Shown: positions 845 through 26,572 of the stretch, piece by piece
Layout of the letters: every line of letters begins with the position of its first letter
How positions within the stretch are numbered: the first letter of the stretch is position 1
NCBI GenBank assembly: GCA_017458975.1
Contig: JAFSZK010000057.1
Location: 11,978 to 75,977, forward strand
Origin: Eubacterium sp.
GTDB lineage: Bacteria; Bacillota; Clostridia; Oscillospirales; Acutalibacteraceae
Length of the DNA: 64,000 bases
Direction: 5' to 3'
Notes under the pieces: generated by a model
The model's database searches: none
What the model saw: the letters and a program-made list of their open reading frames with translations, nothing else
Told to the model about the DNA's origin: nothing
Program-made: the position numbers and the translations under genes

Positions 845-2215
845 TTATTTGTCAAGTATTACGGTAAGAAGGGAATCGGGCTTTGAAAGTATCTCGCTCT
901 TGAAATCGCCCGAATAAATCTCATTAAGCTTTTCGTCCTTATCTGATTCAATAATTACCGCTTTTGAATAATCCGCGTCAAGAGTAACCGAACGTTCTTC
1001 TCCCTCGTTTACAATTACAACAACGGTCCTGCCGTCGCCTGTTTCAAACGCGAAAATATTAAAATCGTTTTCCTTTTCGCTTACATAATAATTAATATCA
1101 AGCGCAACCGAGCCCTTGGGAATATACCTTGAAAAATGGGCGTATCCGTAATATCTTGCGTTTCTGCTCCATTTTGTAAAATCGTCGTTTGCGCTGAACA
1201 TAGCGTCGGAATAATCCTCGCCGTCCTTCATTGCATACTGATTTACCGCAACCCAGCTCGTCCAGCTTCTGCAGCCCGCGTAAATTAAATCCTGACCGAT
1301 AATTCTTGCGGTAATGAGCGCACCCTTAAAATTCCTTGTATGGCTCTTGTTGGGAAGCTCGCACCATTCACTCTGGTCAAAACGAATTTCAGGGTATTTA
1401 TCAACAAACTCTCGCTTGAATTCATACCTCGTTTCGGGAGAGTGGTCGGCGTGGTAGGAGTGAACGGCAAAAACGCCCAGCACACTCATTATTTCCTTAT
1501 CGTTATATAGCTTTTCAAAATAAACCTTTGTATCCTTCAGATATTCCCCGCTTTCGGGACCGTAGAGCTTAATCGGCATTTTACGGCGTATGATTTCCTT
1601 TGCGAAAAGGCTGTAAATCTCATAAAGCTCCTCGACTTCATAATGGCAGCCCTCCTGCCATACATTGGGTCCGCCCCATTTCCATTGGGGCTCGTTAATA
1701 GGGCTGAGATAGTCGACCGGCAAACCCTCGTCAAGAAAATGCTGAGTTACGTCCAGGGCGTAATCAACAAATTTTTTATAGTTCATTTTAGGAAGATTGC
1801 AGGTATGGTAAATAAGTCCGCCCGACGCCTGACCCGTTGAGGTAAAGGAGTAATGGGGCGAATTGCAAAAGAGAATAAGCGTATCAACATTTCCCGTTTC
1901 AAGCGCTTTTTTCATAACCTCGACGGCGGTTTTATCCCTTGTAAAATCCCAGCTCCTGAGCTCTCTTTCTAGCTCAAAGGTCATAAAGCTGTCACACCGT
2001 CTCCACGGATTTGAAACGCGGCAATTGTTTTCGTCAAAGCCCGCGCCTATATTGTAACGGTAAATATTAAGGTCAAGCCCCTCCTCAGTATAAAGAAGGC
2101 GGATTAGCTCGTCCTGAGTTTTTTCATTTGTACATGCCTGAGCCCACCAGCAAGCCGAGGTTCCCCAGCCCTCCAGGGTCTGCATTTTCTTTGCGTTTTT
2201 TAAATTAATTTTCAT
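845..2215 (-). CDS. Glycoside hydrolase family 30 (GH30_4/5-like, possible endo-beta-1,6-galactanase), no signal peptide
   Basis: Motifs GWGTSACWWA, YRYNIGAG, INEP (acid/base Glu), SEWC (nucleophile Glu) and a C-terminal beta-sandwich. ATG at 2215 fits RBS spacing better than the TTG at 2221. Confidence 0.82.
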   Translation of the reverse strand: MKINLKNAKKMQTLEGWGTSACWWAQACTNEKTQDELIRLLYTEEGLDLNIYRYNIGAGFDENNCRVSNPWRRCDSFMTFELERELRSWDFTRDKTAVEVMKKALETGNVDTLILFCNSPHYSFTSTGQASGGLIYHTCNLPKMNYKKFVDYALDVTQHFLDEGLPVDYLSPINEPQWKWGGPNVWQEGCHYEVEELYEIYSLFAKEIIRRKMPIKLYGPESGEYLKDTKVYFEKLYNDKEIMSVLGVFAVHSYHADHSPETRYEFKREFVDKYPEIRFDQSEWCELPNKSHTRNFKGALITARIIGQDLIYAGCRSWTSWVAVNQYAMKDGEDYSDAMFSANDDFTKWSRNARYYGYAHFSRYIPKGSVALDINYYVSEKENDFNIFAFETGDGRTVVVIVNEGEERSVTLDADYSKAVIIESDKDEKLNEIYSGDFKSEILSKPDSLLTVILDK

Positions 2216-2290
2216 AAGCAAAATTCCTTTACAAATCTATATTTTTATAATACAATTAATACATATTGATGTCAATAATCAGGAGCTATT

Positions 2291-3121
2291 ATGGAAATAA
2301 ACGGAAATATCCGTCTTGCGGGAATTGACCTTGACGGAACGCTTTTAAACGACGACAAGCTTCTTTGCGAAGGCGCTGCGGATACAATTAAAAAAGCGTA
2401 TGAAAACGGAATACATATTGTACCCATTACCGGCAGACCCCTGCTCGGTATTCCTAAGTGCGTCACCGAGCTTGACGAGGTTGAATATATTATTTCTTCA
2501 AACGGCGCTCAGATTAACGATATGAAAAATAAAAAAGCTCTTTATACCTGTACGATTTCTCACGGGCGCTCGCTTGAAATAATGCGGCTTTTAAGAGAGC
2601 TTGACCTCGTTTTTGAACCGTTTACCGAGGGCTTCGGCTTTACGGAAAAACATATTTATAATAAGTATTTACACCAATATATCGGAACGGTGCTCGAGGA
2701 ATATATCCGCTCGTCAAGGCGTATTGTAAAACGTATTGAGGACTTATACGAGGGTAACGACCGTGTTACGGACGAATACTTTGTTCACGCCGGCGACGTT
2801 GAAAAAAGAAAAAAGCTCTTAAAAGAGCTTGATAAGGCGGAGGATTTACAGTACTGCGTTTTAAACGACACCTTCGTTGAAATTACCGCAAAGGGCTGCG
2901 ACAAGGGCGAATCGCTCGAAAAGCTGTGCAAACATCTCGGCGTGGATATAAAAGACACAATCGCTTTCGGCGACGGTGAAAACGACCTGTTGTTTCTTGA
3001 AAAGGCGGGAGTCGCCGTTGCTATGGAAAACGCCCATCCCGCAGTAAAGGAAAAAGCCGATATTATTGCAAAAAGCAATAATGATAACGGAGTTTGCGAG
3101 ATTCTGGAAAAGTTAATATAA
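2291..3121 (+). CDS. Cof-type HAD-IIB family hydrolase
   Basis: DLDGTLL, ITGR, KG..K and AFGDGENDL motifs; AGGAG RBS. Confidence 0.95.
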   Translation: MEINGNIRLAGIDLDGTLLNDDKLLCEGAADTIKKAYENGIHIVPITGRPLLGIPKCVTELDEVEYIISSNGAQINDMKNKKALYTCTISHGRSLEIMRLLRELDLVFEPFTEGFGFTEKHIYNKYLHQYIGTVLEEYIRSSRRIVKRIEDLYEGNDRVTDEYFVHAGDVEKRKKLLKELDKAEDLQYCVLNDTFVEITAKGCDKGESLEKLCKHLGVDIKDTIAFGDGENDLLFLEKAGVAVAMENAHPAVKEKADIIAKSNNDNGVCEILEKLI

Positions 3122-3123
3122 TT

Positions 3124-3152
3124 AAAGGACGTCGGCGACGTCCTTATTTTTC
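3124..3152. terminator. Bidirectional intrinsic terminator between convergent genes
   Basis: aaggacgtc-ggc-gacgtcctt hairpin flanked by A and T runs. Confidence 0.7.
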
Positions 3153-3845
3153 TTCTGTTAATTTGTATGGCTTCATAGGCTGTTTCTTGCGGTAGATAAT
3201 CATTATAATCATACCGATTATACCGCCGATTGCGTTCATCATCATATCGGTCATAGAATCAACCAAGCCGAGATAACCGTATTCATTTCTGTATTTTGAA
3301 AGGTCGAACATAGCGGTTTCGGCACCCTCCTTTGCAAGCTGGAGATTTGTTCCGTGCAGAGTATCCATTAAAAACTCGTAAAACTCCCAGCCGACTGCAA
3401 TTGTAAGGGCGAACATAAGCCCGAACATTGCCGCAAGGGTTATTGCGCATTTACCCTTTTTTCTTTGTACAATACACGCAAAATCATATCCGAAAACCGC
3501 TGAGACGATTCCCGCCGTACAATGCATAATCTCATCAAAAAACGAGCATTTGTCAAAAAGCTCAAAATAAGAACCGATTACAATTCCGACAAAAATTATT
3601 GCGTTAAGAGCGGTTTGAGAAATCGGGGGCACCTCCTCAATAAAAGAGCCGTTTCCGAGAATCTGAAACAAATCCCATAGGTGGGTGAAAATAAAGCAAA
3701 ACACGCTTTCAAAGCCCATTACAAGGTCACCGTGCACAAAGGAGTAGGTTGCGCATATAATCATTGCAATTCTTACTATTATCCAGAATATAAGCTGACC
3801 CTTCGGAATATCCTTAACAGGGTCTTTCTTAATTTTATAAGCCAT
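3144..3845 (-). CDS. Integral membrane protein, DUF2238/YjdF-like
   Basis: Multiple TM helices with the D-x-x-x-H, W-E-x-x-E-F and D-S/T-M-x-D-M-x-x-N pattern typical of this family. Confidence 0.6.
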   Translation of the reverse strand: MAYKIKKDPVKDIPKGQLIFWIIVRIAMIICATYSFVHGDLVMGFESVFCFIFTHLWDLFQILGNGSFIEEVPPISQTALNAIIFVGIVIGSYFELFDKCSFFDEIMHCTAGIVSAVFGYDFACIVQRKKGKCAITLAAMFGLMFALTIAVGWEFYEFLMDTLHGTNLQLAKEGAETAMFDLSKYRNEYGYLGLVDSMTDMMMNAIGGIIGMIIMIIYRKKQPMKPYKLTEEK

Positions 3846-4031
3846 ATTTAACTCCGTTTAAACTTGATACCATATATATTATCATAAATCGCCGATAAAT
3901 CAATACGCAATTTTCACAAATATAAAATAAAAATAAACAATTATAAAAACACTTGTAATTCAACTTTTAAGTAGTTATCATATTAGCAACAAAAACAAAT
4001 GGACAACTGTTTATAAGCGGAGGAAGAAATA

Positions 4032-5807
4032 ATGATAAACAAACCCAACGCACCTTGGCTCAAATTTTTTGACGGTATTCCGGAAACTCTCGAATATCCC
4101 CAGGGCTCTATGTATGAAGCTTTGAAATTTGCGCTTGATACTCATATTCACGGTAATTGCTACAAAAACGACGCCTATACGTTTCAGGGTAAGGGTACTT
4201 CCTACCCCGAATTTTTCAAAAGAATTGACCGCGTAGCTAAAGCGTTTAAGTCAATCGGAATTGAAGAGGGCGATAAGGTAACTATCTGTATGCCCAACGC
4301 ACCCCAGGCAATCGACGCGTTTTATGCGCTTAACAGAATCAGCGCTGTTCCCGCAATGATTCATCCCCTTTCCGCTCCCGGCGAAATCAATTTTTATGTA
4401 ACAAACTCAAAGAGCAAGGCTGTACTTGTTCTTGATATGTTCTACGAAAAGGTACTTGAAGCCCTTGAGGGCGTTGATTATCCCGTTAAGGTTATTGTTG
4501 CAAGAATTAAAGACGAGCTTCCTTTCCCGCTTAATATGCTCTATCCGCTTACCGTTAAGGATAAGCCCGCTCCGCTTCCTAAGGATAACGAAAACGTGAT
4601 TTCCTGGAACAGCTTTATCTCAGCGGGCAGGAAAATCAAGTCCCTTCCGGAAAAGCTCCCCGAAAAGGACGATACGGCGGTTATCCTTTTCTCGGGCGGT
4701 ACAACGGGTACCTCAAAGGGAATTGAGCTTACAAATATGAATATGAACGCGCTCGCTTATCAGGTTGCCGCAAGCGCAGGCTTCTCGATGAAGGGACTCA
4801 GGATGTTCTCCGTTATGCCTCTTTTCCACGGCTTCGGTCTCGGAGTCGGTATTCACACGGCGCTCGCCGCGGGAGGAACGTGTATTCTTATTCCTCAGTT
4901 CACAATTAAGACCTATGCAAGAGACGTTAAAAAATACAAGCCCGCGGTTATCGTAGGCGTTCCTACTCTCTTTGAAGCGCTCCTCAGAAGCGACGGCTTT
5001 GACGGGGTCGATTTATCCTTCCTTCGCGGAGTGTTCTGTGGCGGAGATTCGCTTTCGGTTGAGCTTAAAAAGAAGGTTGACACCTTCCTTACCGAGCACA
5101 ATTCAAAGGTACAGATAAGAGAGGGTTACGGTACTACCGAGTGCGTAACGGCTTCATGCCTTACTCCGTATAACTTCTTCAGAGAAGGCAGTATAGGTAT
5201 TCCTTTCCCCGATACATATTACCAGATTGTTGACCCGAAAAACGATACCGAGGTTCCGTACGGTACGGAGGGCGAAATCTGTATTTACGGTCCGTCGGTT
5301 ATGAAGGGTTATCTTGATAACGCCGCTGAGACCGCTGCAACCCTCAGGACTCACAAGGACGGTCTTAAGTGGCTGCACACGGGCGACCTCGGTATGATGG
5401 ACGAGGACGGCTTTATCTACTATAAACAGAGGATGAAAAGACTCATAATCGTTTCGGGCTTTAACGTATATCCCTCCCAGGTTGAAAATACAATCGACGC
5501 TCATCCCGATGTACTTCTTTCCTGTGCAATCGGTATTCCCGACCCGTACAAAATCCATAAGGTTAAAGCTTTTGTCGTACTTCGTCCGGGCGTTGAGCCG
5601 AGCGATAAAATTAAAGAGGAAATTCTCGAGCACTGCCGAAAGAATATTTCAAAACACGCAATGCCCCGAGAGATTGAATTCAGAACCGAGCTTCCCAAAA
5701 CTCTTGTAGGCAAGGTTGCATACAGGGTTCTCGAAGAAGAGGAGGAAGCTAAGGCAAAAGCAAAGGAAGAGGCTGAAAAAGCCAAAGAGACAAAGGACGC
5801 TGAATAG
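4032..5807 (+). CDS. Long-chain fatty acid-CoA ligase (AMP-binding)
   Basis: LFSGGTTGTSKG P-loop, EGYGTTE, WLHTGD and LPKTLVGK motifs; GGAGG RBS. Confidence 0.92.
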   Translation: MINKPNAPWLKFFDGIPETLEYPQGSMYEALKFALDTHIHGNCYKNDAYTFQGKGTSYPEFFKRIDRVAKAFKSIGIEEGDKVTICMPNAPQAIDAFYALNRISAVPAMIHPLSAPGEINFYVTNSKSKAVLVLDMFYEKVLEALEGVDYPVKVIVARIKDELPFPLNMLYPLTVKDKPAPLPKDNENVISWNSFISAGRKIKSLPEKLPEKDDTAVILFSGGTTGTSKGIELTNMNMNALAYQVAASAGFSMKGLRMFSVMPLFHGFGLGVGIHTALAAGGTCILIPQFTIKTYARDVKKYKPAVIVGVPTLFEALLRSDGFDGVDLSFLRGVFCGGDSLSVELKKKVDTFLTEHNSKVQIREGYGTTECVTASCLTPYNFFREGSIGIPFPDTYYQIVDPKNDTEVPYGTEGEICIYGPSVMKGYLDNAAETAATLRTHKDGLKWLHTGDLGMMDEDGFIYYKQRMKRLIIVSGFNVYPSQVENTIDAHPDVLLSCAIGIPDPYKIHKVKAFVVLRPGVEPSDKIKEEILEHCRKNISKHAMPREIEFRTELPKTLVGKVAYRVLEEEEEAKAKAKEEAEKAKETKDAE

Positions 5808-5817
5808 CGTCCTTTTT
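5792..5817 (+). terminator. Intrinsic terminator after the acyl-CoA ligase
   Basis: aaaggacgc-tgaata-gcgtccttt stem followed by a T run, overlapping the stop codon. Confidence 0.75.
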
Positions 5818-5877
5818 AAATTGACAAAAGCAGTTATAAGTAATATAATAATTTAAATATGATTTACGGGTGATGAG

Positions 5878-6744
5878 ATGAAAATTTCGGATATTCTTAA
5901 GGATAATAAGGTAACCGTTTCCTTTGAGGTTTTTCCGCCAAAGCAATGGGACAGGATTGAAAACACAAAGGCGGTAGTTCGCGAGATGAGCAAGGCAAAT
6001 CCCGCTTTTATGAGCGTTACCTACGGCGCGGCAGGTACGGCTTCGGGCTTTACCCAGGAGATTGCAAACGAGATAAAAAAGGATAATATCACCCCCCTCT
6101 CCCACCTTACCTGTTTAACCTCAACCAAGGATAAAATTCACGAGGTAGTAAGCGAGCTTAAGGAAAACGGAATTGAAAACATATTAGCGCTTCGCGGCGA
6201 TATTCCCGAGGGCTTTGTTTTCCCCGATAAACAGTATTACAAGTACGCCTATCAGTTAATAAACGATATTAAGGAAATGGGCGACTTTTGCATCGGTGCG
6301 GCGTGCTATCCCGAAATCCACCCCGAAAGCAAAAACCGCGTTGAGGATATTGAACACCTTAAATTAAAGGTGGATTGCGGCGCTCAGTTTCTCACCTCAC
6401 AGATGTTCTTCGATAATGAAATATTCCTTAACTTTGTCGAAATGTGCCGGATTAAAGGGATTGAGGTCCCTATTGTTGCGGGAATTATGCCCGTTACAAA
6501 CGTAAGAGTTATTAAAAGAAGCCTTGAGCTTTCAAACTGCTCTCTTCCGAAGAAGTTCTCCAAGATTATGGAACGCTTCGGAGAGGACGATAAATCAATG
6601 CTTCAGGCGGGTATTATCTACGCCACCGAACAGATTATCGACCTTATGGCAAACGGAATTAACAATATTCATATTTACACTATGAACAAGCCCGAGGTTG
6701 CAAGCGAAATAATGAGGGGCTTATCGGATATTATAAATGAATAA
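5878..6744 (+). CDS. metF: Methylenetetrahydrofolate reductase
   Basis: SFEVFPPK, SVTYGA, HLTC, ILALRGD, ACYPE.H, TQMFFD and HIYTMNK motifs; TTGACA promoter at 5821. Confidence 0.96.
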   Translation: MKISDILKDNKVTVSFEVFPPKQWDRIENTKAVVREMSKANPAFMSVTYGAAGTASGFTQEIANEIKKDNITPLSHLTCLTSTKDKIHEVVSELKENGIENILALRGDIPEGFVFPDKQYYKYAYQLINDIKEMGDFCIGAACYPEIHPESKNRVEDIEHLKLKVDCGAQFLTSQMFFDNEIFLNFVEMCRIKGIEVPIVAGIMPVTNVRVIKRSLELSNCSLPKKFSKIMERFGEDDKSMLQAGIIYATEQIIDLMANGINNIHIYTMNKPEVASEIMRGLSDIINE

Positions 6745-7297
6745 AAAAGACATACTCCTTTATTTAAGGACTAATTCAAAAACCGAAAACGAACAGATAT
6801 TAAAGCTTGTTGACGAGGCTGCCGTTACGGTTGAAAGAGCCGCAAAGCCTAAAACCCTTTACCGTATTTTTGACTGCACGGTAACGGACGGCGCCCTTAT
6901 TGTTGACGGCGTTGAGTTTAAAAGCCGCCGACTTGCCGAAAACCTTAGGGGCTGTAAAAGGGTTGTAATTTTCGGCGCAACCCTCGGCGTTGAAATCGAC
7001 AGGCTTATCAAGTCCGCTTCCTCGTCGGATATTGCAAAGGCAATGGCGTATCAGGCGGCGGGCGCAACGCTTATTGAAGAGGTCTGCGACGCCCTTGAAG
7101 AGGAGATAAAAAAGGAATACGGCGTATCTTTAAGACAAAGATATTCGCCCGGCTATTTTGACCTTGATATTACCGAACAGAAAAAGCTGTTCTCGTTAAT
7201 AGAAATAACAAAAAGAATCGGCTTAACGCTTACGGATTCCTGCGAAATGGTACCTACCAAAAGCGTTACCGCCTTTATCGGAATTGAGGAAAAGTAA
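6737..7297 (+). CDS. Stand-alone B12-dependent methionine synthase activation domain
   Basis: FGATLG, RYSPGY.D, IGLTLTDS..M.P.KSVTA motifs; overlaps metF and the metH core. Confidence 0.88.
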   Translation: MNKKDILLYLRTNSKTENEQILKLVDEAAVTVERAAKPKTLYRIFDCTVTDGALIVDGVEFKSRRLAENLRGCKRVVIFGATLGVEIDRLIKSASSSDIAKAMAYQAAGATLIEEVCDALEEEIKKEYGVSLRQRYSPGYFDLDITEQKKLFSLIEITKRIGLTLTDSCEMVPTKSVTAFIGIEEK

Positions 7298-20296: not shown

Positions 20297-20482
20297 TATT
20301 GTGGAATTTATGCAATTTCTACAATTTTTTTAAAAAAATTTGTTAAAAAGGTTGCAATAATATCGAATCACTTGTATAATATATACAACTGATTTGATAT
20401 TTTTTTGTGCATAATTATGGGAATAACCAATACCATTGTATTTTTTGCACAAATTAATACTACTAAAGAAAGGATTACGAGT

Positions 20483-21568
20483 ATGCCAAATAAATTATTC
20501 CAGGGAATTATTACTCAGATGAGGCAGGCTACCGACCGTGTTATTGGCGTTATTGACGAAAGCGGAACAATCGTTGCCTCAAGCGACCTCCCCCTTATCG
20601 GCGAGGTCAGAAAGGGAGTTATTGCAGCAGGTGTATTCAACGGTCCGCTCATCAGCGTGGACTCCTGTACTTATAAGGCTTTCGGTGACAGCGTTCATCC
20701 CGACTATGCCGTTTTTGTTGACGGTACTGACGAGGCAAGCCGCCACTACGCAAGCATTATCGCCATTTCTCTTGACCAGATTAAGAAGAATAACGATGAA
20801 AAATTTGACCGCTCTAATTTTGTTAAAAACGTAATTCTTGACAATATTCTTCCCGGTGATATTTATATTAAATCAAGGGAGCTTCATTTTAATAACGACG
20901 CTTCGAGAGTTGTATTCTTAATAAGAGTTACCAAGACAAGCGATATTTCGGTATTTGATATCGTTCAAAACTTCTTCCCCGACAAGTCCAAGGATTTCGT
21001 TATCAATATTAACGAAAGCGATATTGCTCTCGTTAAAGAGGTTCGACCGAATATTGATTCAAAGGACCTTGAAAAGCTTGCGGGCTCAATTTGCGACACT
21101 CTTACAAGCGAATTTAACTGTACCTCGATTATCGGTATAGGCGCCTGCGTTACCGGCATTAAAGAGCTTGCAAGGTCGTTTAAAGAGGCTCAGGTTGCGC
21201 TTGAGGTCGGAAAGGTATTCGATAACGAGCGCTCAATAATAAGCTATGAAAATCTCGGTATTGCAAGACTTATCTACCAGCTTCCTACAACGCTTTGCGA
21301 TATGTTCTTAAAAGAAGTCTTTAAGAAGGGCTCGATTGATTCGCTCGATAGCGAAACCCTCTTTACTATTCAGAAATTCTTTGAAAACAACCTTAACGTG
21401 TCCGAGACGTCAAGAAAGCTCTTTGTTCACAGAAACACCCTTGTATACCGTCTTGAAAAAATTAAGAAGCTTACGGGTCTTGACCTGAGGGAATTTGACG
21501 ACGCTATTGTATTCAAAGTAGCGCTTATGGTAAATAAATACCTTTCCTCAACACCCGTTAAATACTAA
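20483..21568 (+). CDS. CdaR/PucR-family transcriptional regulator
   Basis: N-terminal sugar-diacid recognition-like region, GGDEF-like middle, C-terminal HTH NLNVSETSRKLFVHRNTLVYRLEKI. Start moved to the ATG at 20483 (AAAGGA RBS). Confidence 0.92.
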   Translation: MPNKLFQGIITQMRQATDRVIGVIDESGTIVASSDLPLIGEVRKGVIAAGVFNGPLISVDSCTYKAFGDSVHPDYAVFVDGTDEASRHYASIIAISLDQIKKNNDEKFDRSNFVKNVILDNILPGDIYIKSRELHFNNDASRVVFLIRVTKTSDISVFDIVQNFFPDKSKDFVININESDIALVKEVRPNIDSKDLEKLAGSICDTLTSEFNCTSIIGIGACVTGIKELARSFKEAQVALEVGKVFDNERSIISYENLGIARLIYQLPTTLCDMFLKEVFKKGSIDSLDSETLFTIQKFFENNLNVSETSRKLFVHRNTLVYRLEKIKKLTGLDLREFDDAIVFKVALMVNKYLSSTPVKY

Positions 21569-21573
21569 ATCTT

Positions 21574-21876
21574 ACGCACGGAGTTGCCCACCTGTTCTAA
21601 AGGCTAACAAGGTTTAAATCGTAATCTTTTGCTCATCTTGGCGATTAAAAATCGCCTGAATACGAAAGTATGCAGTCAATTTTATAATCACCAATCCAAC
21701 CAAAATCTTAACGATTTAAACTGCTGCGCACCTCATTCTTAGGATTTTAGTGTAAGAACAAGGCATATTTTTTTGGGAAGGCTGACGCCTTCCCAAAAAA
21801 TTTAACGCAGTTATTATGCTAAAAGACAAGAAATGAGGCTTATTATCCTTTAGAACAGGTGGGCTTTCCCGTGCGT
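21574..21876. repeat. 303-bp fold-back element with 30-bp imperfect terminal inverted repeats (MITE-like or structured RNA)
   Basis: 21574-21603 and 21847-21876 are reverse complements at 26/30 positions (perfect 18-bp core gcccacctgttctaaagg); nested stems inside. Confidence 0.75.
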
Positions 21877-21952
21877 TTTGTTATAATATTGTAATTGTAT
21901 TTAGAGTGAATTTATGATACTATAATAAAAAAATATAAAAGGAGTAATTTTT

Positions 21953-22798
21953 ATGAAAAAGACATTATCAATTTTACTTGCAATTTTAATGATTACAGGC
22001 TTTTCCTCTGTTGCGTTTACGGCGGTGGCTGACGAGCCGGCCTTATGCCATCTTGAAACGCTTGCAACCGAAGGCGGAACCGCTATTGGTGGCGACTACT
22101 ATCCGTCCGGAGATACGGCAGAAATCACAGCAACTCCTGATGAAAACTATATTTTTGTCGGCTGGTATGAAGGCGACAATTTGTTTTCCGACAAAGCCGT
22201 TTACGAATTTACCGTAACAAAGGACATTACCCTTACCGCAAAATTTGAGCCCAAGGCTCTAAAACTCTCTGCAATCAACGTTACAATGACTTATAACATT
22301 GCCAAAAAGCTCAGTATAACGGTTTACGGTGCAAACAACGCTGCACTCAGCAACAAAAATGTAACTATTACTTTTAACGGCAAAAAATACTATTTGAAAT
22401 CAGACAGCAACGGTAAAGCCTCTTTTATTGTTCCGAATACTATTCCCAAAACCTATACCGCAACTGTTGAATGCGACGGAGTTAAACAACAGGTAAAGAT
22501 AGCTATTAAAAAGGCTTCGCCTAAATTAAAAGTAACCACTAAAGCCTTTAAAGCAAACGTAAAAACAAAGAAGTATTCCGTAACCTTAAAAGACAACAAG
22601 GGTAAAGCTCTTAAGAAAGCTAAGGTTACCTTAACTGTTAGGGGTAAAACATATAAAGCAACTACAAATGCAAAGGGCAACGCTACCTTTAAAATTACGA
22701 AGCTTACCAAAAAAGGAAACTATAACGCCTCTATTAAATATAAAGGCGACAAGTATTATAACGCTGCTTCCAAAAAAGCAAAGATTACCGTAAAATAA
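21953..22798 (+). CDS. Secreted protein: divergent InlB B-repeat-like module plus two Lys-rich Ig-like domains resembling methanogen adhesin-like protein tails
   Basis: Signal peptide; GG...G...A.P..NY.FVGWY...YEFTVTKD.TLTAKF module; tail KKASPKLK..K.FKANVKTKKYSVTLKDNKGK..KITKLTKKG.Y...YKGDKYYN...KITVK. Confidence 0.7.
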   Translation: MKKTLSILLAILMITGFSSVAFTAVADEPALCHLETLATEGGTAIGGDYYPSGDTAEITATPDENYIFVGWYEGDNLFSDKAVYEFTVTKDITLTAKFEPKALKLSAINVTMTYNIAKKLSITVYGANNAALSNKNVTITFNGKKYYLKSDSNGKASFIVPNTIPKTYTATVECDGVKQQVKIAIKKASPKLKVTTKAFKANVKTKKYSVTLKDNKGKALKKAKVTLTVRGKTYKATTNAKGNATFKITKLTKKGNYNASIKYKGDKYYNAASKKAKITVK

Positions 22799-22819
22799 TC
22801 ATAAACAAGGAGTTTTTCT

Positions 22820-25800
22820 ATGGCAAAGGTATATCGGGTTTTTGTTGAAAAAAAGAAAGGAAACGACATTGAAGCGGGTCAGATTCTTGAGGACCTGCGC
22901 TCAAACGTCGGCATTACCGCGCTTAAGGATTTAAGAATTATCAACCGCTATGACGCCGAGGGCTTAAGCGAGGAGGAATTCAAATCCGCAGTGGGTCAGG
23001 TATTTTCCGAGGCGAATCTTGATAACGTGTATTATGAAATCAGCTTTGACGAGGGCTGGAAGTATTTTGCAACCGAGTATCTTCCCGGTCAGTATGACCA
23101 GAGGGCGGACTCCGCGGCGCAATGTATTCAGCTTCTCACCGCGGGCGAAAAGCCAACCGTTGCTTACGCAAAGATTATTGCCTTTAAGGGCGATGTTTCC
23201 GAAAGCGAAATTAAAAAAATAAAATCGTATATTATCAACCCCGTTGAGTCAAGAGAGGCGTCAATGGAGCTTCCCGAAACGCTTGATATTAAAAGCGACG
23301 TGCCCGAAGATATTAAAAGAATCGCGGGCTTTATCGCTTTGAGCGATGAAGAAATTGCCGCTTACCACGGAGAAATGGGCTTTGCAATGAGCGTTGCCGA
23401 CCTCTGCTGGGTTCGCGATTATTTTAAAAATGACGAAAACCGCGACCCCTCCCTTACCGAGCTCAAGGTTATTGATACCTATTGGAGCGACCACTGCCGT
23501 CATACCACCTTTGCCACACAGCTTGATGAAATAAAAATCGACCAAAGCAGGTATTGTGCTGCAATCGAAAAAGCATTAAACGATTACTTTGAGGTAAGAA
23601 AAGAGGTCTACGGCGAGCGCAAGGACAAGCTTGTCTGCCTTATGGATATGGCTTGTATCGGTACAAAGGTTCTTAAAAAGAGAGGCTTTGTAAACGACCT
23701 TGACGAGAGCGAGGAAATCAACGCCTGCTCGATTAACGCCAAGGTTGACGTTGACGGAAAAGAAGAGGACTGGCTTATTCAGTTTAAAAACGAAACCCAT
23801 AACCACCCGACTGAAATCGAGCCCTTCGGCGGAGCGGCAACCTGTCTCGGCGGCGCTATCCGCGACCCGCTTTCGGGAAGAGCTTATGTATACCAGGCAA
23901 TGCGTGTAACGGGCTCGGGCGACCCGACTACTCCGTTTGAAAAAACGCTTGACGCAAAGCTTCCCCAAAGTAAAATCACCGTCGGCGCGGCGCAGGGCTA
24001 TTCCTCCTACGGTAACCAGATTGGTCTTGCAACGGGTCAGGTAGTCGAGCTTTACGACGAGGGATATGTTGCAAAAAGAATGGAAATCGGCGCAGTTATA
24101 GGCGCTTCTCCTAAAGAAAATGTAAAAAGAGAAACCCCCGAAAAGGGCGACGTAATCGTTCTTCTCGGCGGCAAGACAGGACGCGACGGCTGCGGCGGCG
24201 CAACGGGCTCCTCAAAAGCGCATAACTCAATGTCAATTGAGACCTGCGGCGCAGAGGTACAAAAGGGTAATCCCCCGACCGAAAGAAAAATTCAGCGACT
24301 TTTCCGCAGAGGAGAGGTTGCAAAAATGATTAAACGCTGTAACGACTTTGGAGCGGGCGGCGTTTCCGTTGCAATCGGTGAGCTTGCCGACGGTCTTAAA
24401 ATCGACCTTGACAAGGTTCCCAAGAAATACGACGGTCTTGACGGTACAGAGCTTGCAATTTCCGAATCCCAGGAAAGAATGGCTGTTGTTATTGACAAGG
24501 GCGATGTTGAAAAATTTGAGGCTTTTGCTAATGAAGAGAACCTTGAAGCAACCGTAGTTGCGGTTGTTACCGATGAAAACAGACTTGAAATGACCTGGAG
24601 GGGCGACAAGATTGTTGACCTTTCCCGTGATTTTCTTAATACTAACGGCGTTGTTCAGCACGCAAAGGCTGAAATCGGCGCGATTGACAGCGACTCATAC
24701 AGGACTTCCGTCCCTGAGGCGCTTCGCGGCTTAAGCAACGCCAAAGCTTTTAAACACAATCTTTCCCGCCTTGAGGTTGCTTCCCAGAAGGGACTCGTTG
24801 AGCGCTTTGACTCCTCAATCGGAGCCGCTACGGTATTAATGCCGTATGCGGGAAGCTACCAGCTTACTCCCGAGGAAGCAATGGTATCAAAAATTCCGCT
24901 TCTCAAGGGTGAAACGGACACTGCGAGCGTTATGGCTTACGGCTTTATTCCGAAGCTCTCCTCATGGTCTCCGTTCCACAGCGCCGCTTTTGCGGTAACC
25001 GAATCGCTTTCAAAGCTTGCAAGCGTCGGTTGTGACCCGTCAAAGGCAAGACTTACCTTCCAGGAATATTTTGAAAGACTCGGCGACGACCCGAAGAGAT
25101 GGGGCAAGCCCACCGCTGCGCTGCTCGGCGCGCTTTCGGCTCAGCTTGGATATAAAACCCCGTCAATCGGCGGTAAGGACTCAATGAGCGGCTCGTTTAA
25201 CGAGCTTGACGTTCCTCCGACTCTCGTATCCTTCGCGGTTGGTATGAGCAAGGCTTCAAAGACGGTATCTTCAAGATTCAAAAAGGCGGACAGCCGCGTA
25301 TTACTTCTTCCCATACCGATTGACGACAGCTCCTCGCTTCCCGATTATGACAGAGCAATGGCGCTTATGATGAGCGTTTACGAGGGTATCAGAAACGGTA
25401 AAATCCTTTCGGCTTCGGTTGTTAAGGAGGGCGGTGCGGCTGCATGTATCTGTAAGATGGCGTTCGGCGATAAATTCGGCTTCACCTTTGAGCGCGACCT
25501 GCTCCCCGAAACACTTTTTGCTCCGATTCAGGGCTCGTTTGTTGTTGAGCTTGCGGCGGGCGAAAATATGGACGGAATCCTTCTCGGTAAAACTAACGAC
25601 AACTCCGTGTTCATTATCGACTCTGAGGTTTATACCTGCGACGAACTTATTGAAGAGTGGACTTCAAAGCTTGAAAAGGTATTCCCGACCGACTCAAAAA
25701 AGGAGGCAAAAATGCCTCAGGACGTTACTCTTTATAATGAACGTTCTATCTTTGTTAATAAAAATAAGGTTGCAAAGCCTAAGGTATTTATCCCCGCTTT

Positions 25801-26572
25801 CCCGGGTACAAACTGCGAAATCGACACAGCGAGAGCTTTTGAAAAAGCGGGCGCCGAGGCTTCAATTCTTGTTGTTAACAACCTCACTCCGGCGTCAATT
25901 AACGAGACGATTGATAAAATGGTATCCGAAATTGAAAGCTCCCAGATTGTTATGCTTCCCGGTGGCTTCAGCGGCGGCGACGAGCCCGAGGGCTCGGGCA
26001 AATTCATTGCTACAACCTTCCGCAACCCGAAGGTAAGCGAAGCTGTAAGCAAGCTTCTGAACAACCGCGACGGACTTATGCTCGGTATCTGTAACGGCTT
26101 CCAGGCGCTTATCAAGCTCGGTCTTGTTCCCTACGGTCAGATTACCAAAACAAAGGAAACCGACCCGACCTTAACCTTTAATACAATCGGCAGACATATT
26201 TCCCAAATGGCGTATACAAGAGTTACAAGCGTTAAGTCACCTTGGTTCTCATCGGTTAATGCGGGAGACGTTTTCGCCGTTCCTATCAGCCACGGAGAGG
26301 GACGCTTTGTTGCCGACGCGGCTACGGTTAAAGCTCTTGCCGAAAACGGTCAGATTGCAACCCAGTACGTTAATCTTGACCTTCAGGTTTGCAGCGATAT
26401 GCCCTTTAACCCGAACGGCTCCGTTTGTGCAATCGAGGGTATTACCTCGCCCGACGGACGCGTACTCGGAAAAATGGGTCACTGTGAGAGAAAGGGAGAT
26501 AATCTTTATACCAACGTTCCGTTTAATAAGGATATGAAGCTCTTTGAAAGCGGCGTTAATTACTTTAAGTAA
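22820..26572 (+). CDS. purL: Phosphoribosylformylglycinamidine synthase (fused PurL/PurQ type)
   Basis: WSDHCRH, KNETHNHPT, GGAIRD, NDFGAGG, SESQERM, and glutaminase PGGFSGGD, GICNGFQ, SHGEG, MGH.ER. Confidence 0.97.
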   Translation: MAKVYRVFVEKKKGNDIEAGQILEDLRSNVGITALKDLRIINRYDAEGLSEEEFKSAVGQVFSEANLDNVYYEISFDEGWKYFATEYLPGQYDQRADSAAQCIQLLTAGEKPTVAYAKIIAFKGDVSESEIKKIKSYIINPVESREASMELPETLDIKSDVPEDIKRIAGFIALSDEEIAAYHGEMGFAMSVADLCWVRDYFKNDENRDPSLTELKVIDTYWSDHCRHTTFATQLDEIKIDQSRYCAAIEKALNDYFEVRKEVYGERKDKLVCLMDMACIGTKVLKKRGFVNDLDESEEINACSINAKVDVDGKEEDWLIQFKNETHNHPTEIEPFGGAATCLGGAIRDPLSGRAYVYQAMRVTGSGDPTTPFEKTLDAKLPQSKITVGAAQGYSSYGNQIGLATGQVVELYDEGYVAKRMEIGAVIGASPKENVKRETPEKGDVIVLLGGKTGRDGCGGATGSSKAHNSMSIETCGAEVQKGNPPTERKIQRLFRRGEVAKMIKRCNDFGAGGVSVAIGELADGLKIDLDKVPKKYDGLDGTELAISESQERMAVVIDKGDVEKFEAFANEENLEATVVAVVTDENRLEMTWRGDKIVDLSRDFLNTNGVVQHAKAEIGAIDSDSYRTSVPEALRGLSNAKAFKHNLSRLEVASQKGLVERFDSSIGAATVLMPYAGSYQLTPEEAMVSKIPLLKGETDTASVMAYGFIPKLSSWSPFHSAAFAVTESLSKLASVGCDPSKARLTFQEYFERLGDDPKRWGKPTAALLGALSAQLGYKTPSIGGKDSMSGSFNELDVPPTLVSFAVGMSKASKTVSSRFKKADSRVLLLPIPIDDSSSLPDYDRAMALMMSVYEGIRNGKILSASVVKEGGAAACICKMAFGDKFGFTFERDLLPETLFAPIQGSFVVELAAGENMDGILLGKTNDNSVFIIDSEVYTCDELIEEWTSKLEKVFPTDSKKEAKMPQDVTLYNERSIFVNKNKVAKPKVFIPAFPGTNCEIDTARAFEKAGAEASILVVNNLTPASINETIDKMVSEIESSQIVMLPGGFSGGDEPEGSGKFIATTFRNPKVSEAVSKLLNNRDGLMLGICNGFQALIKLGLVPYGQITKTKETDPTLTFNTIGRHISQMAYTRVTSVKSPWFSSVNAGDVFAVPISHGEGRFVADAATVKALAENGQIATQYVNLDLQVCSDMPFNPNGSVCAIEGITSPDGRVLGKMGHCERKGDNLYTNVPFNKDMKLFESGVNYFK

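What the first reader, a model, noticed from the sequence alone, without database searches (positions are those of the whole stretch)
22250..22798. Bacterial secreted protein carrying a Methanobrevibacter-type adhesin tail
Seen: a clostridial-style signal peptide and InlB-like module are fused to two basic Ig-like domains (..VTMTYNIAKKLSITV..PKTYTATV.. and KKASPKL..FKANVKTKKYSVTLKDNKGK..GKTYKATTNAKG.ATFKITKLTKKG..YKGDKYYN..KITVK). From memory, this closely resembles the C-terminal repeats of Methanobrevibacter adhesin-like proteins; I have not verified it. Two 60-nt lines I counted here have 20/60 G+C versus 27/60 in a purL line, although Lys richness explains part of this. Inference: inter-domain gene transfer creating a chimera, possibly relevant to bacterium-methanogen attachment.
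Basis: partly seen in the sequence, partly recalled or inferred. Interest (0 to 1): 0.66.

Follow-up and report, generated by a model that had tools for sequence, protein, structure and literature searches.

The report
Bacterial protein with methanogen adhesin tail
A small secreted protein of a rumen/gut Clostridia bacterium really does end in the lysine-rich two-domain tail that Methanobrevibacter methanogens use on dozens of their surface adhesin-like proteins, most likely a rare archaeon-to-bacterium transfer of a cell-wall-binding module, though what it binds is untested.

Summary
Window 21953..22798 (+) is an intact 281-aa gene: Sec signal peptide, one acidic Flg_new_2 (divergent InlB B-repeat) domain, then two Ig-like domains. 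The last domain has 28 Lys in 95 residues and net charge +27.

The tail is homologous (50-71% identity) to the C-terminal module of Methanobrevibacter adhesin-like proteins, the "M1-C" domain of Leahy 2010. That module matched in 57 of 121 sampled Methanobacteriaceae genomes, often at the 42-match scoring cap. It matched in none of the bacterial samples outside the genus (draws of 150 family, 400 order, 399 class and 400 phylum genomes, which overlap) and in 3 of 60 same-genus species.

All eight Flg_new_2-bearing bacterial tails form one clade (93/93) among archaeal branches. This fits one old fusion that then diversified in an Eubacterium coprostanoligenes-group genus. The archaeon-to-bacterium direction rests mainly on distribution; rooting is only partly informative and the GC signal is weak.

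The gene is not an assembly chimera. It has bacterial flanks on a 77.9-kb contig, two independent assemblies carry it, and the architecture recurs on long bacterial contigs.

Function is inferred only: a non-covalent, electrostatic wall-polymer anchor, either on the producer's own wall or on the methanogen's. I found no report of this transfer in the papers I could search.

The parts
20405..21568 (+). Upstream flank: PucR-type regulator gene, native to the genus
   Evidence: 79-89% identical in 8 same-genus genomes. It lies on the same contig and strand as purL in G663, 2.1 kb apart, and in G661, 18.5 kb apart.
21889..21918 (+). Promoter-like site (TTGTAA-18-TATGAT) ahead of the gene; an AAGGAG ribosome-binding site lies at about 21940-21945
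   Evidence: Consensus scan and the sequence itself. A pattern match only.
21953..22798 (+). Complete gene for the 281-aa secreted chimeric protein (stop codon included)
   Evidence: The gene differs by 1 nt in two independent metagenome contigs.
21953..22030 (+). Sec-type signal peptide (aa 1-26, AVA|DE cleavage site)
   Evidence: By inspection of the translation. No lipobox, LPXTG motif or C-terminal TM helix is present.
22052..22255 (+). Flg_new_2 (divergent InlB B-repeat) head domain, acidic (pI 4.2)
   Evidence: Pfam PF18998, E 1.7e-13. Related domains occur in 57 of 60 same-genus genomes.
22265..22510 (+). Ig-like domain 1, matching the penultimate 'archaeal Big domain' of methanogen adhesin-like proteins
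22511..22795 (+). Ig-like domain 2: the lysine-rich terminal domain (net +27), the core of the M1-C-type tail
   Evidence: Up to 71% identity to C-terminal domains in Methanobacteriaceae genomes. Conserved Lys positions. The module lies at the C-terminal end in 186 of 239 homologues.
22820..26572 (+). Downstream flank: purL (FGAM synthase), 21 nt after the stop with no terminator between, so co-transcription is likely
   Evidence: Homology with relatives resumes at about 22805.

Best explanation
Gene and organism. The gene is real and intact. It sits in a rumen/gut MAG of the Eubacterium coprostanoligenes group and encodes a small secreted protein.

Architecture. A Sec signal peptide is followed by a native-type acidic Flg_new_2 domain. 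That domain is joined in frame to the last two Ig-like domains of a Methanobrevibacter adhesin-like protein. This is the 'M1-C' C-terminal module, which Leahy et al. 2010 proposed attaches such proteins to the pseudomurein wall or its glycopolymers.

Origin. The module most likely passed from a Methanobrevibacter to an ancestor within this bacterial genus. It fused once to a Flg_new_2 domain. Since then it has diversified and moved between loci as a small accessory family.

Inferred mechanism. After export and signal cleavage, the extremely basic terminal domain (+27, with conserved lysines) binds anionic wall polymers non-covalently. This holds the acidic head at a cell surface. The protein has no LPXTG motif, lipobox or TM anchor, so this would most simply be the producer's own Gram-positive wall.

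Shown: homology, architecture, taxonomic distribution, and that the junction is genuine. Inferred: direction of transfer, and wall binding with its target.
For: Homology and family size
- 551 hits in the word-indexed search. Named ones are almost all Methanobrevibacter sp. (DUF3344, Ig-like repeat or peptidoglycan-binding proteins) at 45-54% identity.
- 4625 cluster representatives match at E<=1e-3, mostly 500-2000+ aa proteins matched at their extreme C-terminus.
- The tail reaches the C-terminal end in 186 of 239 homologues. In 39 more it is followed by 76-98 further residues; members scanned carry PG_binding_1 there.

Distribution of the last domain at E<=1e-5
- 57 of 121 genomes in the family of a Methanobrevibacter MAG match, many at the 42-match scoring cap, with up to 71% identity.
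- The window genome's own family gives 0/150, order 0/400, class 0/399 and phylum 0/400. These draws overlap.
- The tail occurs in 3 of 60 other species of the genus, each with a different N-terminal part.

Tree
- All 8 Flg_new_2-bearing tails form one clade at 93/93; 7 of them have 99/85 support. Rows from archaeal genomes lie on all other major branches.
- When the Ig2 subtree is rooted with Ig1, the bacterial rows are nested after at least five archaeal splits. Two of those splits have SH-aLRT 87 and 91.
- An unnamed close hit, P0073, lies on a 133-kb contig with CofC, UPF0179 and archaeal-type aminoacyl-tRNA synthetases.

The gene is genuine
- The 77.9-kb contig has bacterial genes on both sides. 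PucR-purL linkage is conserved in the genus, with variable cargo between the two genes.
- Two independent metagenome contigs carry the gene with 1 nt difference, followed by purL.
- The same Flg_new_2 to Ig1 to Ig2 order is found on Firmicute-type contigs of 17-52 kb, next to SASP, LepA and PBP5 genes.

Anchor reading
- M1-C was proposed as a wall-attachment domain, and M. ruminantium walls are phosphate-rich like teichoic-acid walls (PMC2812497).
- Net charge of the last 95 residues is +29 +/- 6 in archaeal tails and +25 to +32 in bacterial ones. Many invariant columns are Lys.
Against: - The tree is unrooted. The Ig1 subtree places the bacterial group at the root (support 74, long branches), so topology alone does not fix the direction.
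- Members of the bacterial clade are as far from each other (~50-56% identity) as from archaeal tails. The event is therefore old or the family evolves fast, and no donor lineage is resolved.
- The GC3 deviation is weak.
- A general wall anchor would be expected on several proteins per genome, as in Methanobrevibacter. The tail occurs once in this genome, and I found one tail-bearing gene in each of the three other genus members that have it. That fits a specialised ligand better than a housekeeping anchor.
- I found no experimental test of M1-C binding in the searchable literature.
Confidence: 0.55

Rival explanations
1. Trans-acting methanogen binder. The bacterium secretes the protein, and the archaeal-type tail docks specifically onto the pseudomurein wall or glycopolymers of Methanobrevibacter cells. 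The tail is built for exactly that. The Flg_new_2 head contacts the bacterium, for instance its own membrane-anchored Flg_new_2 proteins. The result promotes close contact for interspecies hydrogen or formate transfer.
For: - The tail family is otherwise confined to pseudomurein-walled methanogens, where it is proposed to bind their wall.
- It is single-copy per bacterial genome and rare in the genus, unlike a generic anchor.
- All sources are ruminant or gut samples where Methanobrevibacter co-occurs (RUG, STEW19 and XIEF21 records).
- M. ruminantium co-aggregates with hydrogen-producing Gram-positive bacteria (PMC2812497).
- A membrane-anchored zinc-ribbon/TM/Flg_new_2 family occurs in same-genus genomes and could be a partner; Flg_new_2 matches were found in 57 of 60.
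Against: - There is no evidence that M1-C recognises pseudomurein rather than any polyanionic wall polymer.
- Nothing in the 281-aa protein would tie it to the producer, so bridging needs an unproven head-to-bacterium contact.
- The head is a single 70-residue domain with no known ligand.
Confidence: 0.25
2. Reverse direction. The basic tail arose in Clostridia of this group and was donated to Methanobrevibacter, where it expanded massively. This would match the published view that methanogen adhesin-like proteins came from bacteria.
For: - The literature infers bacteria-to-archaea transfer for many surface genes of Methanobrevibacter and Methanosphaera (PMC3445992; PMC10658910).
- The Big_1 fold is bacterial in the deep sense.
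- The unrooted tree shows bacteria as one side of a branch.
- The Ig1 subtree puts the bacterial group at the root.
Against: - The tail is found in 4 of 61 species of one genus and in none of the other sampled Bacillota (overlapping draws of 150, 400, 399 and 400 genomes), against about half of the sampled Methanobacteriaceae with tens of paralogues each.
- The bacterial rows are monophyletic, not paraphyletic to the archaeal radiation.
- The Ig2 subtree nests them inside archaeal rows.
- The bacterial proteins carry only the last one or two domains of what is a long repeat array in archaea.
Confidence: 0.12
3. Artefact. The gene, or its Flg_new_2/Ig junction, is a metagenome assembly chimera or comes from a mis-binned archaeal contig.
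For: - Such chimeras exist. The 2.8-kb 'Lachnospiraceae' contig L002 switches at nt 1329 from bacterial cbi genes (GC 48%) to sequence 93-94% identical to a Methanobrevibacter contig, non-coding DNA included.
- The sequence just upstream of the start codon differs among three assemblies.
- Read support could not be examined.
Against: - The tail is at most 71% identical in protein to any archaeal copy.
- The ORF is complete and in frame, with its own signal peptide and RBS.
- It is flanked by conserved bacterial genes on a 77.9-kb contig.
- Two independent assemblies reproduce the gene and the purL junction.
- At least seven other bacterial proteins share the same domain order at 48-56% identity.
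Confidence: 0.02

Closest known systems
M1-C C-terminal domain of Methanobrevibacter ruminantium M1 adhesin-like proteins (Leahy et al. 2010, PMC2812497)
   Same: - About 185-200 residue C-terminal module with weak Big_1 homology.
- Two Ig-like domains, the last one extremely lysine-rich.
- Sits at the very C-terminus behind an N-terminal secretion signal.
- 44-55% identity to copies in a 2.9-Mb single-contig genome of the family, which may be M1 (not verified), and up to 71% to other species.
   Different: - Here the host is a bacterium.
- The passenger is a single bacterial Flg_new_2 domain, not a long array of archaeal Big domains, beta-helices, DUF3344 or proteases.
- There is one copy per genome instead of tens.
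- The wall it would meet in cis is murein, not pseudomurein.
Adhesin-like proteins (ALPs) of gut and rumen Methanobacteriales (Samuel 2007; Gupta & Seedorf 2024, PMC11532034; PMC13658579)
   Same: It shares the 'archaeal Big domain' type of Ig-like repeat, and a secreted surface location is presumed.
   Different: It is not an ALP as a whole: 281 aa, no beta-helix domain, no membrane-anchoring helix, and a bacterial genome. Only the terminal module is shared.
Listeria InlB (B-repeat plus GW modules)
   Same: It has a B-repeat-type domain (Pfam Flg_new_2). In both, a secreted protein without covalent anchor would be held on a Gram-positive surface by a basic C-terminal module that binds anionic wall polymers; in InlB the GW modules bind lipoteichoic acid (established knowledge, not tested here).
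   Different: It has no LRR or inter-repeat region. The C-terminal module is Ig-like rather than GW/SH3-like. There is no homology beyond the B-repeat, so this is an analogy of layout, not membership.
Inter-domain gene transfer between gut methanogens and Firmicutes (Lurie-Weinberger et al. 2012, PMC3445992)
   Same: Same habitat and same partners, and surface-related genes are involved.
   Different: Published cases run overwhelmingly from bacteria to archaea; two to four of roughly 200 trees ran the other way. Here a surface-protein module appears to have moved from archaeon to bacterium and fused to a bacterial domain.

Membership tests
M1-C-type C-terminal tail of Methanobrevibacter adhesin-like proteins | Significant sequence homology to the C-terminal ~200 residues of Methanobrevibacter ALPs | tested here: met
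   Named Methanobrevibacter hits at E 1e-34 to 1e-39. Identity of 60-71% over the last 95 aa in Methanobacteriaceae genomes.
M1-C-type C-terminal tail of Methanobrevibacter adhesin-like proteins | Located at the extreme C-terminus of a secreted protein | tested here: met
   The tail ends at residue 281 of 281, and the N-terminal signal peptide is seen by inspection. The position is the same in 186 of 239 homologues.
M1-C-type C-terminal tail of Methanobrevibacter adhesin-like proteins | Weak Big_1 (PF02369) homology and an Ig-like fold | tested here: met
   Big_1 E 1.5e-12. The AF2 model shows two beta-sandwiches with pLDDT above 95. Foldseek matches Ig-like adhesin stalks.
M1-C-type C-terminal tail of Methanobrevibacter adhesin-like proteins | Strongly basic terminal domain with conserved lysines | tested here: met
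   Net +27 here, +29 +/- 6 in archaeal tails. Invariant K187, K204, K206, K213, K232 and K253.
M1-C-type C-terminal tail of Methanobrevibacter adhesin-like proteins | Binds the cell wall (pseudomurein or wall glycopolymers) | not testable with these tools
   This is only a proposal in Leahy 2010. I found no experimental test.
Methanogen adhesin-like protein (whole-protein class) | Archaeal host; large multi-domain protein with ABD arrays, beta-helix domains and/or membrane anchor | tested here: not met
   The contig and genome are bacterial. The protein is 281 aa, with no beta-helix and no TM anchor.
Internalin B-like proteins | LRR domain plus inter-repeat region plus B-repeat plus GW modules | tested here: not met
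   Only Flg_new_2/Flg_new matched. There were no LRR or GW/SH3 hits, even at E up to 10.
Flg_new_2 (PF18998) domain proteins | Score above the Pfam gathering threshold | tested here: met
   50.8 bits against a cutoff of 23.6. TIGR02543 scored 25.5 against 20.95.

The most novel reading that the evidence does not exclude
A hydrogen-producing rumen Clostridia lineage captured the wall-docking tail of Methanobrevibacter adhesin-like proteins. It uses the tail on a secreted protein to tag or grip the methanogen's own pseudomurein wall. That would be a bacterium-encoded adhesin aimed at its archaeal syntrophic partner, built from the partner's own anchor module.
Probability: 0.22. Interest if true: 0.8.

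Novelty: new variant of a known kind. Interest (0 to 1): 0.58.

Why it matters
Gene flow between gut methanogens and bacteria is documented almost entirely as bacteria-to-archaea. Methanogen adhesin-like proteins are usually described as bacterial imports. Here the most expanded, methanogen-typical part of those proteins turns up in a narrow bacterial lineage, fused to a bacterial domain and kept intact.

This offers a small, soluble, easily expressed version of the M1-C module for the first direct test of what the module binds. That question has been open since 2010 and bears on methane-mitigation vaccines and on how methanogens and hydrogen producers stick together. If the tail targets methanogen walls, the protein would be a bacterial tool for choosing an archaeal partner.

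Tried and rejected
- **Read support across the junctions.** I substituted independent assemblies.
- **G+C as evidence of foreign origin.** Tail GC3 of 0.362 against a genome mean of 0.456 +/- 0.058 is only the 8th percentile of equal-sized windows, and the 13th without Lys codons. This is weak support at most. The other five bacterial family members show the same direction, but those numbers are noisy.
- **Donor lineage.** The sister group of the bacterial clade has only 86/78 support, so it is not resolved.
- **Paralogue rooting.** Ig2 supports nesting, while Ig1 puts the bacterial rows at the root on long branches. The result is inconclusive overall.
- **A second bacterial lineage.** The Lachnospiraceae RUG11047 contig L002 was rejected. 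The contig is a chimera whose second half is 93-94% identical to a Methanobrevibacter contig.
- **Vector search.** No match was found in the phage or plasmid collections. One IMG/VR methanogen-virus contig has an ALP tail at its edge, but it may be host flank.
- **Other searches with nothing useful.** PDB by sequence gave nothing below E 0.1. Rfam on 21400-23000 found nothing. Earlier findings of this scan had nothing related.
- **Recent sweep.** I first took the 1-nt difference in L141 as a sign of a recent sweep. That was dropped when the identical block turned out to extend 1.4 kb into purL before L141 becomes about 80% identical. L141 is a mosaic or strain-mixed contig.

Full report
**What is there**

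Window 21953..22798 (+) is an uninterrupted 281-codon ORF with an AAGGAG ribosome-binding site 8 nt upstream.

- Pfam finds Flg_new_2 ("Divergent InlB B-repeat domain", PF18998) at aa 34-101 (E 1.7e-13, 50.8 bits against a cutoff of 23.6).
- Two Ig-like domains follow, hit by CarboxypepD_reg, Big_1 and Big_3_5. NCBIfam adds only the Listeria-Bacteroides repeat.
- The N-terminus (MKK, a hydrophobic core, then AVA|DE) reads as a Sec signal peptide.
- There is no lipobox, LPXTG motif or C-terminal helix.
- AlphaFold2 with a 71-row alignment gives mean pLDDT 87.5, and above 95 throughout the tail, which forms two beta-sandwiches. Foldseek returns only generic tandem Ig-like stalks such as MpIBP, SiiE, Bap and macroglobulin domains.
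- The mature head is acidic (pI 4.2, net -9). Ig1 is basic (+8). Ig2 is extreme: 28 Lys in 95 residues, net +27, pI 10.5.

**Whose genome**

The window is C8:11978-75977 of a 1.85-Mb MAG with 117 contigs, 90% complete and 0.76% contaminated. C8 is 77.9 kb long.

Its purL is 83% identical to that of Eubacterium coprostanoligenes ATCC 51222. It is 85-89% identical to uncultured rumen and gut Clostridia MAGs such as RUG177 and a sheep-ileum MAG.

**Is the tail Methanobrevibacter-like?**

Yes.

- In the 5.8-billion-protein search, almost every hit that carries a name is a Methanobrevibacter sp. protein: DUF3344-containing, "Ig-like domain repeat" or "peptidoglycan-binding". Identities are 45-54% over the tail.
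- The exhaustive representative search finds 4625 clusters (475 at E<=1e-30). Most are proteins of 500 to more than 2000 aa, matched at their C-terminal end.
- Of 239 homologues aligned over at least 160 residues, 186 end with the tail. In another 39 it is followed by 76-98 more residues; members scanned with Pfam carry a PG_binding_1 domain there.
- One Methanobrevibacter MAG (RUG823) has 31 matches to the last domain.
- An unnamed close hit, P0073, lies on a 133-kb contig with CofC, UPF0179 and archaeal-type synthetases.
- Leahy et al. 2010 described this module as "M1-C". It is a conserved C-terminal domain of 44 M. ruminantium adhesin-like proteins with weak Big_1 homology. They proposed that it attaches the proteins to pseudomurein or wall glycopolymers, and noted that these walls are as phosphate-rich as teichoic-acid walls (PMC2812497).

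**Distribution**

I searched with the last domain (95 aa) at E<=1e-5.

| Group sampled | Genomes with a match |
|---|---|
| Family of the Methanobrevibacter MAG | 57 of 121, many at the 42-match scoring cap, up to 71% identity |
| Window genome's own family | 0 of 150 |
| Its order (30 families) | 0 of 400 |
| Its class | 0 of 399 |
| Its phylum | 0 of 400 |

The bacterial draws overlap: some genomes were sampled more than once.

Within the genus, the Flg_new_2 head has relatives in 57 of 60 species. Those I inspected are zinc-ribbon/TM/Ser-Thr-rich/Flg_new_2 proteins. The tail occurs in only three other species, each with a different N-terminal part:

- G663, which resembles P0002.
- G1074, with several Flg_new_2 repeats plus the tail.
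- G1104, with the last domain only.

Metagenome proteins P0002, P0003, P0216 and P0219 share the Flg_new_2-plus-tail layout. P0002 and P0003 lie on contigs of 17-52 kb with SASP, LepA, PBP5 and Fic genes, which is a Firmicute context, and at non-syntenic sites.

**Phylogeny**

I built an IQ-TREE (LG+C20) tree of 86 tails.

- All eight Flg_new_2-bearing tails fall in one clade (93/93), and seven of them at 99/85.
- Rows from archaeal genomes and named Methanobrevibacter proteins occupy every other major branch.
- The junction between Flg_new_2 and Ig1 is at the same place in the seven most closely clustered members.

This fits one founding fusion.

The tree is unrooted, so I tried rooting each domain with its paralogue.

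- In the Ig2 subtree, the bacterial rows are nested after at least five archaeal splits. Two of those have SH-aLRT 87 and 91.
- In the Ig1 subtree, the long-branched bacterial rows sit at the root with support 74. That may be long-branch attraction.

Direction therefore rests mainly on the lopsided distribution and copy number, with partial support from rooting. I put archaeon-to-bacterium at about 0.8.

Members of the bacterial clade are as divergent from each other as from archaeal tails (about 50-56%). The transfer is therefore not recent, and no donor species can be named.

**Composition**

The tail is G+C-poor: 0.34-0.37 against 0.49 in purL. Its GC3 of 0.362 is at the 8th percentile of equal-sized windows of the genome's long ORFs, and at the 13th when Lys codons are left out.

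**Is it an assembly artefact?**

- The flanks are native. The PucR-type regulator and purL are 79-89% identical to same-genus homologues.
- They are linked in the same order in G663 (2.1 kb apart, with a PAS protein and a methyltransferase between) and in G661 (18.5 kb apart).
- The interval is therefore a variable cargo site, and the 281-aa gene is this strain's cargo. Homology with relatives stops at the PucR stop codon and resumes about 12 nt before the purL start.
- Two independent metagenome contigs, L141 and L142, carry the gene with a single nucleotide difference and run on into purL.
- L141 is identical for a further 1.4 kb and then drops to about 80%. It is itself a strain mosaic.
- Upstream of the RBS, the three assemblies have three unrelated sequences.
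- For contrast, a true chimera was seen. The "Lachnospiraceae" contig L002 switches at nt 1329 to sequence 93-94% identical to a Methanobrevibacter contig, non-coding DNA included.

**How it probably works**

Shown: the architecture, the homology, the conservation of the terminal position, and of charge and lysine columns across both domains of life.

Inferred: the protein is exported, and the basic terminal domain binds anionic wall polymers non-covalently.

Two targets are possible.

1. **Cis, about 0.55.** The protein binds the producer's own Gram-positive wall and displays the Flg_new_2 head. This is the simplest reading, because the module keeps the role and position proposed for it in the donor. 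Phosphate-rich glycopolymers exist in both wall types.
2. **Trans, about 0.25.** The protein binds the methanogen wall. Two points fit a specialised ligand: the tail is single-copy and rare in the genus, and the family is otherwise confined to pseudomurein-walled hosts. Nothing in the protein would tether it to the bacterium.

The 21-nt gap to purL has no terminator-like site, which suggests co-transcription.

**Comparison with what is known**

The tail meets every testable feature of the M1-C module. The whole protein is neither a methanogen adhesin-like protein nor an internalin (see the membership tests).

Published inter-domain transfers in this habitat run almost entirely from bacteria to archaea (PMC3445992; PMC10658910). 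Recent surveys of adhesin-like proteins do not mention bacterial carriers of the tail (PMC11532034, PMC13658579). Within the searchable library I found no description of this bacterial family.

**Verdict**

- It is a new variant of a known kind: a methanogen surface-anchor module captured by a bacterium.
- Interest is moderate. The transfer is well supported and runs in the unusual direction.
- The protein is a convenient handle on the untested function of M1-C.
- The mechanism, and any role in bacterium-methanogen contact, remain inference.

Noticed in passing
window 21574-21876: The intergenic DNA between the PucR-type gene and the target holds a ~300-nt element. It is bounded by 38-nt imperfect inverted repeats (84% complementary) and has an inner hairpin with 52-nt arms. 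A 45-nt core (21644-21688) recurs at 10 other sites in the genome at 80-82% identity, and about half of these lie within ~200 nt of a contig end. It looks like a MITE-like dispersed repeat. No transposase was seen beside the four copies I inspected.
   Followed up: partly
window 21569-22805; L139 (G663:C29), L140 (G661:C6): The PucR-purL interval is a variable cargo site in this genus. It holds 1.25 kb with the target gene here, 2.1 kb with a PAS-domain protein and a methyltransferase in G663, and 18.5 kb of other genes in G661. Homology to relatives ends exactly at the PucR stop and resumes at the purL ribosome-binding site.
   Followed up: partly
L002 (CACWZK010000182.1, 'Lachnospiraceae' MAG RUG11047), nt 1329-2808: This 2.8-kb contig is a chimera. 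Nt 1-1328 carry bacterial-type cobalamin genes (GC 48%; the CbiJ-like protein is only ~40% identical to Methanobrevibacter homologues). From nt 1329 it is 93-94% identical to the Methanobrevibacter RUG823 contig OMSA01000076, including low-GC non-coding DNA. It is probably an assembly artefact, so it does not count as a second bacterial carrier of the tail.
   Followed up: yes
L155 (IMGVR_UViG_3300037676_000011), 2-1009 and 1506-6771: This contig is from a virus of a pseudomurein-walled methanogen. It has a PMBR-containing lysin-like protein, a Gp10_C baseplate protein and Ig-repeat fibre proteins. Its very edge carries an adhesin-like protein end with the same tail plus PG_binding_1, 51% identical to the window's tail. 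I did not resolve whether this is viral cargo or host flank of a provirus.
   Followed up: partly
L146-L149, L151, L152 (same-genus genomes); G000:C22:22759-22974: Same-genus genomes encode ~230-290-aa proteins with an N-terminal zinc ribbon (CxxC...CxxC), one TM helix, a Ser/Thr-rich linker, a single Flg_new_2 domain and an acidic C-terminus. All six relatives I inspected have one. Flg_new_2 matches in frames of similar size occur in most of the 57 of 60 matching genomes, and this genome has a 254-aa frame with such a match. It is an uncharacterised membrane-anchored surface family and the likely source of the target's head domain.
   Followed up: partly
L141 (ERZ28018901 k141_545410) vs window 21950-24676: The contig is identical to the window (1 mismatch) up to 24207, inside purL. 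It then falls abruptly to ~80% identity. This is either a recombination mosaic or a strain-mixed metagenome contig. All three assemblies (window, L141, L142) have unrelated sequence immediately upstream of the target's RBS.
   Followed up: partly
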